A stretch of 11,735 nt of DNA from IMG/VR virus record IMGVR_UViG_2537562192_000017. One strand, 5' to 3'. The number at the start of each line of letters is the position of its first letter. Position 1 is the stretch's first letter. The DNA comes from a virus (Duplodnaviria; Heunggongvirae; Uroviricota; Caudoviricetes). The position numbers are program-made. Shown here piece after piece: positions 3,001-9,000 of this stretch.

Positions 3001-6000
3001 CACATCAAGTACTTTTTCTGCCGTCGTCAGCATTGCCTGTCGGCAGGCGTTCCAGCCGTTGACATAGTGACGTGTTGCATCCCATGAAACCTGCACATCA
3101 GGGTAAGCATCCTGTTCTGTTCTCACTGGCGGTATCTGAGGAACAGTGAATAGTGGACTGACGATATATTTATCCAGAGAGCCTCCCCGCTCTTCTGCAA
3201 GACTTTCCCACGATGTCATTGTGGGGACCCTGTAACCTGCTTTTTTGTGCGTATACATCCATGCCACTCTGCCGTTATCATCTGCGGCGGCAATGCGCTG
3301 CCAGGCAGGATAAAGCGGGGTGTATGTTTCTCTGTCATTACGGGCGTCAGGCATGGCATCAATACTGCAAACTTCCCCCGTAAGGTTATTCAGCCAGGCC
3401 TTCGGGCTAATCTCTGACGTTACGATTTCATCCAGTTTTTTCTCCAGATTTTCTATGTGACTGATTAGCGCAAGGATAACTGGCGGAGTGGCAAGGGAGT
3501 GAAATGCTTCCAGATCACATCCCTTGTCTCCATATACGGTATTTTGTGCGGCGTCACGCAGTGCTTTCAGATCAGCTTCTTTCATCGTTCAGACTCCCTT
3601 GTTGCTGTTTTGTAGGCGCGCAGGATGTCGCGTGTTTTTCCTGATAATGACGACTTAACCAGGAAAAAGCCGCTCCGGCTTTCTGTGATGTCCGGCGTGC
3701 ACAGAAGTACCGCATCAACGACACGATTATGTTTTCGCAATGTCAGGCGGGAACTGGTGATAATCAGTTTTGCCTGTTCGCCGTAATCGGTGAATGAAAT
3801 AATCATCTGATGGCGATCTCCGTTATGAAAGTGTTCCTGCTGGTTCAATGCTGATAATTTCTGCTGCAATAAGCATACCTGCCAGCCATGCTTCGCCGAG
3901 CATGTCCTCATCCGTACATGCAAGATCACCGATCTGTATTGTGGCCATAATGTTAGTTTCACCGTAAGCGTACAGCCTGAACCGTCTGGTCAGAATCTGA
4001 CGAATTAGACAAAGTGGTGTCCACCAAATAAGTAGTGGGAACCAAAGTATCAGATATGCAGAAAAATGTGACTCCCGGCAGGCGAAAAGGCTGCCCTAAT
4101 TATCCTCCCGAATTTAAACAGCAGCTCGTTGCTGCCTCCTGTGAACCCGGGATATCCATCTCAAAACTTGCTCTTGAAAATGGCATTAACGCCAATCTGT
4201 TGTTCAAATGGCGACAACAATGGCGCGAGGGAAAACTGCTATTACCTTCTTCAGAGAGCCCCCAGCTACTTCCTGTGACTCTCGATGCCGCTGCCGAACA
4301 GCCAGAATCGCTCGCAGAGGCCCCGGAAACCCTCAGTATCAGCTGTGAGGTAACGTTCCGGCACGGGACGCTCCGCTTCAATGGCAATGTCAGCGAAAAG
4401 CTCCTGACTCTGCTGATACAGGAACTGAAGCGATGATCCCGTTACCTTCCGGGACCAAAATTTGGCTGGTTGCCGGTATCACCGATATGAGAAATGGCTT
4501 CAACGGCCTGGCTGCGAAAGTACAAACGGCGCTGAAAGACGATCCCATGTCCGGCCATGTTTTCATTTTCCGGGGCCGCAGCGGCAGTCAGGTTAAACTG
4601 CTGTGGTCCACCGGTGACGGACTGTGCCTCCTGACCAAACGGCTGGAGCGTGGGCGCTTCGCCTGGCCGTCAGCCCGTGATGGCAAAGTGTTCCTTACGC
4701 AGGCGCAGCTGGCGATGCTGCTGGAAGGTATCGACTGGCGACAGCCTAAGCGGCTGCTGCCCTCCCTGACCATGCTGTAAATCTCTTTATCCTGGTTGTC
4801 ACAGAATAAGCCCGGTAAAATACGGGCTTATGAACGACATCTCTTCTGACGACATCTTCCTGCTGAAACAGCGCCTGGCCGAACAGGAAGCGCTGATCCA
4901 CGCCCTGCAGGAAAAGCTGAGCAACCGGGAGCGCGAAATAGACCATCTGCAGGCGCAGTTGGATAAACTCCGCCGGATGAACTTCGGCAGTCGTTCCGAA
5001 AAAGTCTCCCGCCGTATCGCACAAATGGAAGCCGATCTGAACCGGCTTCAGAAAGAGAGCGATACGCTGACTGGTAGGGTGTATGACCCGGCAGTACAGC
5101 GTCCGTTGCGTCAGACCCGCACCCGTAAGCCGTTCCCTGAATCACTACCCCGTGACGAAAAGCGACTGTTGCCTGCGGCGCCGTGCTGCCCGAACTGCGG
5201 CGGTTCACTGAGCTATCTGGGCGAGGATACCGCCGAACAGCTGGAGTTGATGCGTAGCGCCTCCGGGTTATCCGGACGTCGGGAAAAACATGCCTGTACT
5301 CAGTGCGATGCCATCGTGCAGGCACCTGCACCTTCGCGGCCCATCGAGCGGGGTATCGCCGGACCGGGGCTGCTGGCCCGCGTGCTGACCTCGAAGTATG
5401 CAGAGCACACCCCGCTGTATCGCCAGTCAGAAATATACGGCCGGCAAGGTGTGGAGCTGAGGCGTTCACTGCTGTCGGGCTGGGTGGATGCATGCTGCCG
5501 GCTGCTGTCTCCGCTGGAAGAGGCGCTTCATGGCTATGTCATGACTGACGGCAAACTCCATGCCGATGATACCCCGGTCCAGGTACTGCTGCCGGGTAAT
5601 AAGAAGACGAAGACCGGGCGGTTGTGGGCGTATGTTCGTGATGACCGCAATGCCGGGTCAGCGTTGGCACCTGCAGTGTGGTTCGCTTACAGCCCGGACA
5701 GAAAAGGCATCCATCCGCAGACTCATCTTGCCTGCTTCAGCGGTGTGCTGCAAGCGGATGCGTACGCCGGGTTCAACGAGCTTTATCGCAATGGTGGGAT
5801 AACGGAAGCTGCCTGCTGGGCTCATGCCCGCCGAAAGATCCACGATGTGCACGTCCGCATCCCGTCAGCACTGACGGAAGAAGCCCTGGAGCAGATCGGT
5901 CAGTTGTACGCCATAGAGGCGGATATAAGGGGAATGCCGGCAGAGCAGCGGCTTGCTGAACGTCAGCGAAAAACGAAACCGTTGTTGAAATCCCTGGAAA

Positions 6001-9000
6001 GCTGGTTGCGTGAAAAGATGAAGACCCTGTCGCGACACTCAGAGTTGGCGAAGGCGTTCGCGTACGCACTTAACCAGTGGCCGGCACTGACGTACTATGC
6101 GAACGATGGCTGGGTGGAAATCGACAACAACATCGCTGAAAATGCCCTGCGGGCGGTCAGTCTGGGTCGTAAAACTTCCTGTTCTTCGGCTCTGACCATG
6201 GTGGTGAGCGGGGAGCGCTACTGTACAGCCTGATCGGGACGTGCAAACTGAATGACGTGGATCCAGAAAGCTACCTTCGCCATGTGCTTGGCGTCATAGC
6301 AGACTGGCCGGTCAACCGGGTCAGCGAACTGCTTCCGTGGCGCATAGCACTGCCAGCTGAATAACACATCCCCGTCAATACGGCCCTCGCTGTACGCTTA
6401 CGTTTCACCGGTATATTCATCCTGTGCTTCTTCATACGGCAGGTTTTCATAAAGGTTTTCAATTGCGCAGGTTATTACATCCAGTCCCGTCAGATTGCCG
6501 ACAACGTCCACTTCAAATGTTTCGCGGTACTCCCATTGCCCGAGTGTCAGACGAACCGTCTGTCTTGCCATGCGCCCGCATAATGTCATGTTCGGGTCGT
6601 AGTTCATGATTGCCGCAGTAGTGCTATTCATGTTCTGCCTCCGGTGTGTAAATAGCTTTGTCGTGTTTAAATTCACCGTTCCAGTTTTTCTTCATAGGGA
6701 GTTCACCGTTCATGTAAAACTGGTATAAACGGTGGCATCCTTTTTCCAGCAATACGGGGGTGAATTTCGTGAATGTTGCTTTCCCGTGTGGAGTGATCTG
6801 TACTGCTTCTTCGGTCAGGTATCTGTCACGGGCATAAGAGGCCGTGCGCCAGCGGGGTGTTTTCTCCGGATCGCGTTGTTCGTTGAATACCCATTTTCGG
6901 CCAGACAGCCACCACATTATCTGGCTGGTATTTACGCCGTTCAGCGCACGGCAGAACTGGGGAACAGTCATGCCTTTAGAGAAATGTTTTTCCAGACTGT
7001 CTACGGTTGCAGAGAGCGTTTTATTTTCCAGGGCCATAGCTTCAGCCCGTTCTTCGGCCTCAATAACCATCAACGCGAGTTCCTTGCGAGTGAGTACGCG
7101 CTGAACATCGATGTTTTCCCGCTGAGTGAAGTAGAACTCCACAAGGTCTTCGTGATAGTTCCACGCCTGATCCGTTTCCAGCAATTTTGCGTGGTTGGCT
7201 GCGCCGCGTTCGGTCCAGAGGATGAGGGATCGAACATTGCTGGCAATTTTCACAGAGTAGCTTTGAGATACTCTGTGCTTAAGTTCACGTAGTTCATCGC
7301 CTTCCAGCAAAAAATAATGCTTTCCAACAACGAATCGTTCTTCGTTTCGGGAATGATTCTGGCGAATACGGATTGGTGTTGCTCCATAACCTGCCGCCAG
7401 TTGTTCAGTGGTCACAACGCGTTGACCGCGATATTCGATAATTTGCAAATCACGGGCTGCCACCGGCACAAGTTCAGTTGATTTTTTCATCATTACACCT
7501 CACGAAAAGCTGATTAGTGGAACACTCTGGTTTCCGGTTCTGAGTTGTCAGTGGCTTCACTGATAAGCCCATCCAGAATCATGTGCATCGCTCTGTAACC
7601 TTCCATTGTGATGCCGGTTTTTTCGCCGTCGCCCAGAGCGCCGGTGAATGCTTTGTACATAAGAATGCTTTTGAGCAGCCCTGATTCCGCTCCGTAAGTT
7701 TCTATGAGTGCCCATTCCATATAGTTCTGCATAGCGAGACGTAATGGTTTCAGGTAGATTGTCATGCCACCGTTGTGGCCTCTGTACATGGTGCCCTTGT
7801 CTGTACCGCCATTCTCGTTAAGCACTTCGGTCCAGCCGTTTCTGGTGAGCTGTTCAGAGAAGAACATGGCGGTATAAAGCCAGCGCCAGTACATGATTGT
7901 CTTTTCCGGCGCGAGCTCACCTGTCATGCCTTTTTCTTCTGCTTCACTGATGCAACACACTATTTCCAGACCATGCCAGATCGGCTCGTCAAAACAGCCT
8001 TCATCGAGCATTTCCAGTGCTTTGTTGATATCAAGCAGTCCGTAAGGTGTGTGGATACCTTCAGCGGTAAGAAAAAATAACTGTTCAGTTGCAGTCATGG
8101 TTTGCTCTCTTCTTAAATGGTCTTTGCGCGACAAGCCGGCAATACTGATCAATCCAGGCGTTGTATTTTTCCATCCAGGCATCAAACTGTTTTCTGCGTG
8201 CAAGGATGCGCAACAGGCGATAAAAACAACGCCCGTGAGCTCTGTAGTATTCGGGCGTAATTTCTCCCGGATGAAAGACTTCTCCATATTCCGGATGCAT
8301 CAGGCGCTGGTCAGGCAGACGTTTTTCAAAACCTGAACTTTCGAATACCTTCGTTGTCATAAAATGAGCGAGATGTATGATGGCCGTTTTTCGCGTGAAG
8401 CATTTCTTAACTTGTCCGTGGCGGCAGACTCTGTAAACAGGGCCGCAATCGAGTTCGTATTTATGAAAAGCACGGTCGATTCCGGCATTATTTATTGCAC
8501 TGTATTCCGCATCACTGAAGAAAGGTGGAAATACGATGTATCCTTCCATTGTCAGCGCCAGAACGCGCGGATCGGTTTCTGTCAGCCATTCGTTTTCTGT
8601 GAATTCTTCAGAATTAATTTCAATGATTTCAGGTTCTTCTTTCATGGTTACTCCGTGTTCATCCGGTGTTAATTACTTTTATTCACTCTGAGCGCAGCCA
8701 GAAGATGTGGCTCAGCAATTCGTTTGTTGCGATATATCTGTGATACAGCCTGGCCTTTTCAGGTTGTAAAAATCCCCGACAATAAAGCTGTAAATTAATT
8801 ACTGTTCTTAAATAATGTTATTCGTTTTCAGTCCGGCACAGATGCTTTTCTGCTTTGTCTGCTGTACAGGATAATGAGCGGAAAAGACAATTCATCATGT
8901 TTAGCGCATCTGGTGAACCAATATCACCGCTGTCAATAATCACCTGTAACAAAGACAGGCTTTCTGTTATCTCGCAGTGGACATTATCGAGTACTTCAAC

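What the first reader, a model, noticed from the sequence alone, without database searches (positions are those of the whole stretch)
3582..6631. IS orientation predicts polarity on xis/int expression from pL
The IS lies inside the leftward operon with its genes on the opposite strand. Any pL-driven transcript must cross 2.4 kb of antisense IS DNA before reaching the 74-aa gene, the Ead/Ea22-like gene, the 80-aa gene, xis and int. In lambda, lytic-phase xis/int expression depends on pL read-through. This prophage may therefore be impaired for excision unless a local promoter (for example near the CGTATC repeats at 2376-2404) compensates.
Basis: inference. Interest (0 to 1): 0.4.

Follow-up and report, generated by a model that had tools for sequence, protein, structure and literature searches.

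The report
ISEc8 insertion in prophage early-left operon
An ordinary ISEc8 insertion sequence has split a small prophage gene between the phage's leftward early promoter and its excision genes, so it probably dampens promoter-driven xis/int transcription, but whether that impairs excision cannot be decided from sequence.

Summary
A 2,438-bp ISEc8 (IS66 family) copy lies at 3964-6401. It has GTAAGCG-type inverted repeats and an 8-bp target duplication (GTTTCACC). Its tnpA, tnpB and tnpC are on the + strand, opposite to the minus-strand prophage genes. It splits a 120-aa DUF5406 gene. Eight complete E. coli genomes carry the uninterrupted allele, and three carry the identical insertion.

A pL-like promoter sits at 10418-10390, next to a LexA-type repressor gene. 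The order downstream of it is: early genes, IS, 74-aa gene, 300-aa gene, 80-aa gene, 48-aa gene, xis, int.

Polarity is plausible. Translation stops three bases inside the IS. About 2.6 kb of untranslated antisense RNA follows, with C>G stretches that could load Rho. I found no N homolog, no nut site and no good sigma-70 promoter between the IS and xis.

The lambda premise is unproven here. Without N/nut it is unknown whether pL transcripts ever reached xis/int, about 8 kb away. A distant homologue, Rac xisR, is under host control (RpoS, H-NS). Defective O157 prophages often still excise.

The "CGTATC repeats" lie inside a conserved 48-aa ORF. Verdict: an ordinary IS insertion with a reasonable, untestable textbook inference. 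Low novelty.

The parts
3964..6401 (+). ISEc8 (IS66 family) insertion sequence, 2,438 bp
   Evidence: Inverted repeats, target duplication and three IS66 ORFs are present. About 99-99.9% identical to copies annotated as ISEc8 in RefSeq.
3964..3985 (.). Left terminal inverted repeat (GTAAGCGTACAGCC...)
   Evidence: (I3)
6380..6401 (.). Right terminal inverted repeat
   Evidence: (I3)
3956..3963 (.). 8-bp target-site duplication GTTTCACC, left copy
6402..6409 (.). 8-bp target-site duplication GTTTCACC, right copy
4056..4436 (+). tnpA (IS66 accessory protein)
   Evidence: Pfam HTH_Tnp_1 and NCBIfam IS66 TnpA; RefSeq annotation.
4433..4780 (+). tnpB (IS66 Orf2)
   Evidence: Pfam TnpB_IS66 E 1e-38; NCBIfam IS66_TnpB.
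4830..6364 (+). tnpC (DDE transposase). In this window it is frameshifted at 6170 (A4 instead of A5) and carries a 3-nt net indel at 5261-5279.
   Evidence: Pfam DDE_Tnp_IS66 E 3.5e-101. Differences from the 512-aa RefSeq protein are shown.
6402..6631 (-). N-terminal 76 codons of the disrupted DUF5406 gene. The reading frame runs into the IS and stops at 6398-6400.
   Evidence: Pfam DUF5406 E 2e-17; reconstruction; annotated as a pseudogene in RefSeq.
3823..3963 (-). C-terminal remnant of the disrupted DUF5406 gene, without a start codon
3582..3806 (-). 74-aa gene (phrog_1001), the first intact gene downstream of the IS
2683..3585 (-). 300-aa gene (phrog_24401). Called ead/Ea22-like in some RefSeq records.
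2448..2690 (-). 80-aa gene
2281..2427 (-). 48-aa conserved ORF (phrog_3871) that contains the three GATACG/CGTATC repeats (2376-2404)
2019..2273 (-). Excisionase (DUF1233, XisR-type)
   Evidence: Pfam E 2e-27; phrog_539; 26% identical to Rac XisR.
696..1985 (-). Tyrosine integrase (Arm-DNA-bind_2 plus Phage_integrase), 43% identical to Rac IntR
10390..10418 (-). Candidate pL (TTGACA-17-TAACCT) overlapping an operator-like palindrome
   Evidence: Best minus-strand promoter score in the window (11.2; next best 9.2). Operator repeat D6 and palindrome I4. Sequence.
10443..11102 (-). LexA/cI-type repressor gene
   Evidence: phrog_4 E 7e-57; NCBIfam and RefSeq 'LexA family protein'.
6624..10357 (-). 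Early-left genes between pL and the IS: an HTH regulator, several small ORFs and an ORF6N antirepressor-like gene. None resembles N.

Best explanation
Shown: a copy of ISEc8 transposed into codon 77 of a 120-aa DUF5406 gene. The 8-bp duplication marks a bona fide transposition event. The gene lies in the early-left gene string of a ~65-kb lambdoid prophage with 933W-type structural genes. This prophage is the stx-negative sibling of an Stx1c-converting prophage and is integrated at the rcsB start codon. The IS genes point away from xis/int, so any transcript from the repressor-controlled pL must read the IS antisense.

Inferred: ribosomes stop three bases inside the IS. The next 2.6 kb of RNA is not translated, and C-rich, relatively G-poor stretches are exposed. 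Rho therefore probably terminates most pL transcripts inside the IS. That would lower pL-driven expression of the 74-aa, 300-aa, 80-aa and 48-aa genes, xis and int. Nothing like lambda N/nut is present to override this.

More weakly inferred: SOS-induced excision is reduced. It is not necessarily abolished, because xis/int of this Rac-like type may also be expressed from local or host-controlled promoters.

My estimates: about 0.97 for the insertion and gene disruption, about 0.6 for substantial polarity, and about 0.35 for a meaningful excision defect caused by the IS. The overall confidence given (0.55) refers to the polarity step.
For: - IS anatomy and identity.
- The empty site exists: the uninterrupted allele is present at 99-100% identity in 8 complete genomes. 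The identical insertion is in 3 genomes, and a fourth has the left junction only.
- Operon layout and tight gene packing from the ORF6N gene down to int.
- pL assignment.
- Stop at 6398-6400, a 2,591-nt untranslated stretch, and C/G bubbles of 1.7-2.07 in the first 1.2 kb of antisense RNA (mean C 31.7%, G 27.1%).
- No N, no nut, no put-like RNA.
- No LexA box and no convincing sigma-70 promoter between 4100 and 1986 on the minus strand.
- No second copy of xis/int at megablast level in strain 2015C-3121. That record holds only 2 matching places for the whole window, so complementation in trans by a near-identical module is unlikely.
- Established knowledge: uncoupling translation from transcription exposes rut sites and causes Rho-dependent polarity, and Rho silences prophage genes (review PMC12360218).
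- The same lineage went on to accumulate an IS1A in the first gene after pL (2012EL-2448, 2018-166). STEC2018-553 also has a deletion, running from the ISEc8 into the tail region. This fits a prophage that stays put and decays.
Against: - No strong intrinsic terminator lies on the antisense strand. There are only weak hairpin/T-tract candidates near 5290, 4399 and 4118.
- The C>G bias is modest: overall C/G is 1.04 and G stays at about 19-22% in the best windows. Rho termination is plausible but not predicted with confidence.
- Dependence of xis/int on pL is assumed from lambda. This phage lacks N/nut, and xis lies about 8 kb from pL even without the IS.
- Rac xisR, a distant family member, is driven by RpoS and Rac excision is modulated by H-NS.
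- O157 Sakai prophages with predicted defects still excise.
- Activator-dependent promoters such as lambda pI cannot be detected by consensus scans.
- IS-free siblings also carry other IS insertions (IS3 in 2013C-3033, IS4 in JNEC-KY173). Accumulation of lesions is therefore not specific to the ISEc8 lineage.
Confidence: 0.55

Rival explanations
1. The insertion is neutral for excision. xis and int are expressed from their own local, activator-dependent or host-controlled promoter(s), as reported for Rac xisR. The IS then only inactivates the accessory DUF5406 gene and perhaps lowers expression of a few accessory genes.
For: - The module is XisR/IntR-type.
- Rac xisR is induced about 110-fold in stationary phase via RpoS, and Rac excision is affected by H-NS (PMC4632033).
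- There is no N/nut, so long-range pL read-through is not assured even in the ancestor.
- Defective Sakai prophages still excise, some without xis.
- The int and xis proteins are identical in IS-bearing and IS-free genomes (same WP accessions).
Against: - No convincing sigma-70 promoter lies upstream of xis or int. The best match is a weak one at 2373-2346 inside the 48-aa ORF.
- Genes from the ORF6N gene to int are tightly packed or overlapping, as in a single transcription unit.
- Xis is only 26% identical to Rac XisR, so Rac regulation may not transfer.
Confidence: 0.3
2. The IS drives downstream genes rather than blocking them. An outward-facing promoter at the left end of ISEc8, or a hybrid promoter at the junction, transcribes the 74-aa gene through to xis/int constitutively.
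For: One weak extended -10 type match lies inside the IS and reads outward (GTCACA-17-TACTTT with TG, 4072-4044, score 7.05). Established knowledge: some ISs, such as IS2 in one orientation, activate neighbouring genes.
Against: The score is well below the pL candidate (11.2) and is typical of background matches; the stricter scan found fewer promoter-like sites in the window than in shuffled sequence. By eye (not scored with a tool) I saw no -35/-10 combination across the IRL junction in the sequence. Constitutive xis/int expression would destabilise the lysogen, yet the prophage is retained at rcsB in four related genomes.
Confidence: 0.04
3. The question is moot. The prophage is already defective through other lesions, so the ISEc8 insertion is just one of several decay events and not the cause of immobility.
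For: In 2015C-3121 the same prophage has a frameshifted gene next to the capsid gene, a truncated tail-tip fibre gene, an IS1 in the hsdS region and a frameshifted hok. Sister strains add an IS1A in the first pL gene or a deletion from the IS into the tail region.
Against: None of these other lesions touches int, xis or the att sites, so they bear on virion production rather than excision. This explanation is compatible with the main one rather than exclusive of it.
Confidence: 0.25

Closest known systems
ISEc8 (IS66 family), as catalogued in ISfinder and annotated in RefSeq
   Same: Three ORFs tnpA-tnpB-tnpC, GTAAGCG-type terminal inverted repeats and an 8-bp target duplication. About 99-99.9% nucleotide identity to annotated copies on E. 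coli chromosomes and pO157-type plasmids.
   Different: This copy is 4 bases shorter than the copy in 2015C-3121. Its transposase has a -1 frameshift at 6170 and an altered 7-residue stretch between the zinc-finger cysteines. These are either real decay or sequencing errors.
Classical polar IS insertions (IS1/IS2 in gal, lac and lambda operons) acting through Rho-dependent termination
   Same: The insertion inside a polycistronic unit introduces an early stop and a long untranslated stretch upstream of distal genes. The mechanism is textbook (PMC12360218).
   Different: Polarity has not been measured here. In lambda, N-modified polymerase reads through such insertions (textbook knowledge, not checked here), whereas this phage shows no N/nut.
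Lambda pL-N-...-xis-int operon
   Same: A cI-like repressor with operator repeats at divergent promoters, and a leftward early gene string that ends in xis and int next to attL.
   Different: The first pL gene is an HTH regulator and not N. There is only a ~20-nt leader and no nutL. No exo/bet/gam/cIII homologs were detected. The excision module is XisR/IntR-type rather than lambda Xis/Int.
Rac prophage intR-xisR module (E. coli K-12)
   Same: Same Pfam families (DUF1233 excisionase; Arm-DNA-bind_2 plus Phage_integrase). Same position at the distal end of a leftward early string. Int is 43% identical.
   Different: Xis is only 26% identical. The att site differs: the rcsB start codon here, ttcA in Rac. 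The RpoS/H-NS control reported for Rac is untested here.
Stx1c-converting prophage at rcsB in O146:H21 strain 2013C-3033
   Same: 99.9% identical across int through the replication genes, with the same att site and the same immunity region.
   Different: It lacks the ISEc8 insertion (intact DUF5406 gene) and carries stxA1c/stxB1c. The IS-bearing prophage in 2015C-3121 lacks exactly that ~1.76-kb stx segment.

Membership tests
IS66 family / ISEc8 | tnpA, tnpB and tnpC (DDE_Tnp_IS66) in one orientation | tested here: met
   Pfam HTH_Tnp_1, TnpB_IS66 (1e-38) and DDE_Tnp_IS66 (3.5e-101); NCBIfam IS66 TnpA, TnpB and transposase.
IS66 family / ISEc8 | Terminal inverted repeats beginning GTAAGCG | tested here: met
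   3964-3985 and 6380-6401; the first 13 nt are identical.
IS66 family / ISEc8 | 8-bp target-site duplication | tested here: met
   GTTTCACC on both sides. The empty site with a single copy is found in 8 genomes.
IS66 family / ISEc8 | Near-identity to the reference ISEc8 | tested here: met
   99-99.9% identity to many copies annotated 'IS66-like element ISEc8 family'.
IS66 family / ISEc8 | Intact transposase reading frame (an active copy) | tested here: not met
   A -1 frameshift at 6170 removes the last 63 of 512 residues, and residues 145-151 are altered. This may be sequencing error.
Lambda-type N-antiterminated pL operon | Repressor-controlled leftward promoter with operators shared with the rightward promoter | tested here: met
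   TTGACA-17-TAACCT at 10418-10390 has the top score. A 23-nt repeat lies at 10375-10397 and 11151-11173, and TTTCGAAA palindromes are present.
Lambda-type N-antiterminated pL operon | N-family antiterminator as the first pL gene | tested here: not met
   The first gene is an XRE/HTH regulator. No early-left ORF hits an N family in Pfam or PHROGs.
Lambda-type N-antiterminated pL operon | nut site (boxA plus a boxB hairpin) in the early transcript, shared by the left and right operons | tested here: not met
   boxA-like matches are at the chance level. There is no GNNNA pentaloop hairpin and no shared left/right hairpin. The leader is only ~20 nt. No Rfam hit.
Lambda-type N-antiterminated pL operon | xis and int at the distal end, same strand, next to attL | tested here: met
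   xis 2019-2273, int 696-1985, attL core 644-654.
Lambda-type N-antiterminated pL operon | Lytic xis/int expression depends on pL read-through | not testable with these tools
   Needs transcript mapping. No expression data are available.
Rho-dependent polar insertion | Premature stop followed by a long untranslated stretch within an operon | tested here: met
   Stop at 6398-6400; the next credible start is at 3806; only spurious antisense ORFs lie between.
Rho-dependent polar insertion | C-rich, G-poor rut-like RNA in the untranslated stretch | tested here: inconclusive
   78-nt windows reach C/G 1.7-2.07 (5951-5446, 6270-6193), but G is still 19-22% and the overall C/G is 1.04.
Rho-dependent polar insertion | Reduced expression of distal genes, relieved by inhibiting Rho | not testable with these tools
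   Requires RNA-seq or qRT-PCR with and without bicyclomycin.
Rac-type XisR/IntR excision module | DUF1233 excisionase and an integrase with an Arm-DNA-bind_2 N-terminal domain | tested here: met
   Pfam 2e-27 and 5.8e-24. BLASTP to Rac IntR gives 43% identity (1e-116) and to XisR 26% (9e-07).
Rac-type XisR/IntR excision module | Host-factor (RpoS/H-NS) control of xis independent of the lytic promoter | not testable with these tools
   Reported for Rac only (PMC4632033).

The most novel reading that the evidence does not exclude
The ISEc8 copy may act as a transcriptional insulator with a host-level consequence. This prophage integrates exactly at the rcsB start codon. That cuts rcsB off from rcsD and its native promoters and places it 45 bp downstream of int, with no predicted terminator between them. 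In IS-free lysogens, SOS-induced pL/int read-through could then run into rcsB and tie the Rcs stress regulon to prophage induction. The antisense IS would ground the prophage and also uncouple rcsB from that surge.
Probability: 0.08. Interest if true: 0.45.

Novelty: already known. Interest (0 to 1): 0.13.

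Why it matters
If the polarity is real, a single IS insertion helps lock a cargo-carrying, Stx1c-phage-related prophage into the chromosome of a STEC lineage. That would be one small, concrete example of how prophages become domesticated. It would not change any concept. IS polarity, Rho silencing of prophage genes and IS-driven prophage decay in STEC are all well documented. The practical value is limited to predicting whether this particular prophage can still mobilise.

Tried and rejected
- Strong intrinsic terminators on the IS antisense strand: only weak candidates turned up, so I dropped the idea of a hard terminator.
- Lambda-type antitermination: I searched for N homologs (Pfam and PHROGs), boxA, boxB-type hairpins and shared left/right hairpins and Rfam families. 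All were negative.
- Alternative control signals: LexA boxes and cII-type TTGC-N6-TTGC sites near xis/int were absent.
- The 'CGTATC-repeat promoter': rejected as proposed. The repeats encode part of a conserved 48-aa ORF and only a weak promoter match overlaps them.
- Outward or hybrid promoter at the IS left end: only a background-level match.
- Direct evidence of excised phage: I searched for the predicted attP junction (23- and 31-mers) in viral and metagenome contigs, and for the IS junction in viral contigs. There were no hits. This is uninformative either way.
- Characterised phage relatives of the early-left region: none are close. Only the segment from the int N-terminus through xis to the 48-aa ORF is about 88% identical to Stx1/Stx2 phages such as VT1-Sakai.
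- Literature on rcsB as a prophage integration site, or on polar effects of ISEc8: nothing specific found.

Full report
**What is there.**
The window starts at rcsB (1-651, minus strand) and then runs through the left arm of a prophage. On the minus strand the order is:
- int, 696-1985
- xis, 2019-2273
- a 48-aa ORF, 2281-2427
- an 80-aa ORF, 2448-2690
- a 300-aa ORF, 2683-3585
- a 74-aa ORF, 3582-3806
- a split DUF5406 gene
- an ORF6N antirepressor-like gene, 6624-7493
- several small ORFs of unknown function
- an HTH regulator, 9980-10357
- a LexA/cI-type repressor, 10443-11102

Divergent rightward genes follow from about 11214.

**The insertion sequence.**
Between the two halves of the DUF5406 gene lies an IS at 3964-6401 (2,438 bp).
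- Its terminal inverted repeats both begin GTAAGCGTACAGC.
- A perfect 8-bp duplication, GTTTCACC, flanks it (3956-3963 and 6402-6409).
- tnpA, tnpB and tnpC are all on the + strand.
- It is about 99-99.9% identical to elements that RefSeq annotates as ISEc8.

Deleting the IS and one copy of the duplication restores a 120-aa DUF5406 ORF (phrog_3409, E 1e-44). That empty site exists in nature. Eight complete E. coli genomes carry the uninterrupted allele at 99-100% identity, and three carry the identical insertion with both junctions (2015C-3121, 2012EL-2448, 2018-166). A fourth, STEC2018-553, has only the left junction. There the ISEc8 abuts a tail-region gene, which points to a deletion running from the IS into the tail region.

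**Context.**
In strain 2015C-3121 the prophage is about 65 kb. It lies between rcsD and rcsB and has a Q antiterminator, a nanS-p/holin/lysozyme cassette and 933W-type structural genes.

The IS-free sibling in O146:H21 strain 2013C-3033 is 99.9% identical over int through the replication genes. It carries stxA1c and stxB1c, so it is an Stx1c-converting prophage. The IS-bearing copy in 2015C-3121 lacks exactly that ~1.76-kb stx segment.

**Is there a pL upstream?**
Yes, plausibly. The best minus-strand sigma-70 match in the whole window is TTGACA-17-TAACCT at 10418-10390 (score 11.2; the next best is 9.2). It lies immediately downstream of the repressor gene. It overlaps a palindrome, and a 23-nt repeat there recurs at the divergent promoter (10375-10397 and 11151-11173), as expected for OL/OR-type operators.

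From the ORF6N gene to int, the genes overlap or are 7-33 nt apart, which fits one transcription unit.

**Would the IS be polar?**
The interrupted reading frame ends at a TAA three bases inside the IS (6398-6400). The next credible start is the 74-aa gene at 3806. That leaves 2,591 nt of minus-strand RNA with only spurious ORFs.

I found no strong intrinsic terminator on that strand. There are weak hairpin/T-tract candidates near 5290, 4399 and 4118.

The first 1.2 kb of antisense RNA is C-biased (mean C 31.7%, G 27.1%). Some 78-nt windows reach C/G 1.7-2.07, for example 5667-5590. G remains at 19-22% in those windows, so rut quality is moderate.

Untranslated RNA of this length is a classical Rho substrate, and Rho is known to silence prophage genes (PMC12360218). 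Orientation matters for a simple reason. In the opposite orientation a read-through transcript would be sense to the three tnp genes, which span about 95% of the IS, and it could be translated.

**Is there anything that would override polarity?**
In lambda, N-modified polymerase reads through polar insertions (textbook knowledge, not checked here). In this phage:
- The first pL gene is an HTH regulator with a leader of only ~20 nt.
- No early-left ORF matches an N family.
- boxA-like matches are at the chance level.
- No boxB-type hairpin, and no hairpin shared by the left and right operons, was found.
- Rfam gives nothing.

This cuts both ways. Polarity would not be suppressed. But without processive antitermination it is also uncertain that pL transcripts ever reached xis, about 8 kb away, in the IS-free ancestor.

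**Are there compensating promoters?**
Consensus and weight-matrix scans find no good sigma-70 promoter on the minus strand between the IS and int.

They sit inside a conserved 48-aa ORF (phrog_3871, E 5e-31) and encode part of ...IRLRYGYRYD.... Only a weak match (score 7.0) overlaps them.

An outward-reading match at the IS left end (4072-4044) is at background level. No LexA box and no cII-type repeat lies near xis/int. Activator-dependent promoters cannot be excluded by such scans.

**What the comparison with known systems says.**
The excision module is of the Rac XisR/IntR type: Pfam DUF1233 and Arm-DNA-bind_2, with Int 43% and Xis 26% identical to the Rac proteins. For Rac, xisR transcription rises about 110-fold in stationary phase in an RpoS-dependent way, and H-NS also affects excision. 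Excision there is thus partly under host control (PMC4632033).

In O157 Sakai, nine prophages excise despite sequence-predicted defects, including two that lack xis (PMC2669165).

These precedents lower the confidence that an upstream polar insertion translates into an excision defect. In the other direction, strain 2015C-3121 has no second near-identical xis/int copy to complement in trans (only two matching places for the whole window).

**Lineage evidence.**
The ISEc8-bearing prophage later acquired an IS1A inside the first pL gene in two strains. In a third strain it lost the segment from the IS into the tail region. int and xis stayed identical at the protein level.

That fits a resident, decaying prophage. 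IS-free siblings also carry other IS insertions, so this is weak evidence.

**Verdict.**
The feature is an ordinary ISEc8 insertion that is already annotated in RefSeq genomes. I put substantial polarity at about 0.6. A real excision defect caused by the IS is less likely, at about 0.35, and cannot be tested with sequence tools. Novelty is low.

Noticed in passing
window 644-720 (attL); L005 (K-12 rcsD-rcsB); L004 5850-6090 (attR): The prophage integrates exactly at the rcsB start codon. The 11-bp core TACATGAACAA is shared by attL, attB and attR, and in the predicted attP it is flanked by a perfect 8-bp inverted repeat (ACAAGTAC/GTACTTGT). About 65 kb of prophage now separates rcsB from rcsD and from everything natively upstream of it. 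Phage DNA supplies a new 5' UTR and RBS and a promoter-like site (TAAACA-18-TAAAAT, 709-680, minus strand). No terminator is predicted between int and rcsB. 14 of 5,426 complete genomes have this int-rcsB junction. I found no literature that names rcsB as a prophage or Stx-phage integration site.
   Followed up: partly
L007 (2013C-3033) 15766-16993 compared with L001 40973-40988: The IS-free sibling prophage (99.9% identical in the early region) carries stxA1c/stxB1c between hsdS and nanS-p. The prophage in 2015C-3121 lacks precisely that ~1.76-kb segment. The window's prophage therefore belongs to an Stx1c-converting phage family and is an stx-negative variant.
   Followed up: partly
window 5261-5279 and 6170: Relative to the ISEc8 copy in 2015C-3121, this window's tnpC has a net 3-nt indel that changes residues 145-151, between the zinc-finger cysteine pairs. 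It also has a -1 frameshift in an A-run that removes the last 63 of 512 residues. This is either an inactivated IS copy or homopolymer sequencing errors.
   Followed up: yes
window 10358-10399, minus strand: The operator palindrome forms a 9-bp-stem hairpin (dG -12.1) followed by TTTTTTT, just downstream of the repressor gene's stop codon. It looks like a terminator for the repressor transcript. The pL -10 element lies inside its 5' arm, so transcripts that start at pL would lack that arm and escape termination.
   Followed up: no
L002 11596-12293 (2012EL-2448; also 2018-166) and L003 12407 onward (STEC2018-553): There are further IS events in the same prophage lineage. An IS1A sits inside the HTH gene immediately downstream of pL. 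Separately, the ISEc8 right end is joined to a truncated YadA-like tail-region gene, which implies that the immunity, replication, lysis and head genes have been deleted.
   Followed up: partly
window 9053-9415, minus strand: A 120-aa protein of unknown function (phrog_1737) has an arginine-rich N-terminus (SAYRRRITVAALRRMKRKTG) that is superficially like the RNA-binding motif of N proteins. It has no family match, and no nut-like hairpin lies nearby.
   Followed up: partly
window 9418-9516, minus strand: An unannotated 32-aa ORF (MKDKHAYKTALLMADAGYWSVAVLFLKKAYGK) with an upstream GGGGA motif lies in the 174-nt 'intergenic' gap of the early-left operon.
   Followed up: no
window 1689-2382: Mosaic boundary. 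Only the segment that encodes the Int arm-binding N-terminus, Xis and part of the 48-aa ORF is about 88% identical to inducible Stx1/Stx2 phages (VT1-Sakai, yecE-type Stx1a phages). The rest of int and the early-left region has no close relative among sequenced phages.
   Followed up: partly
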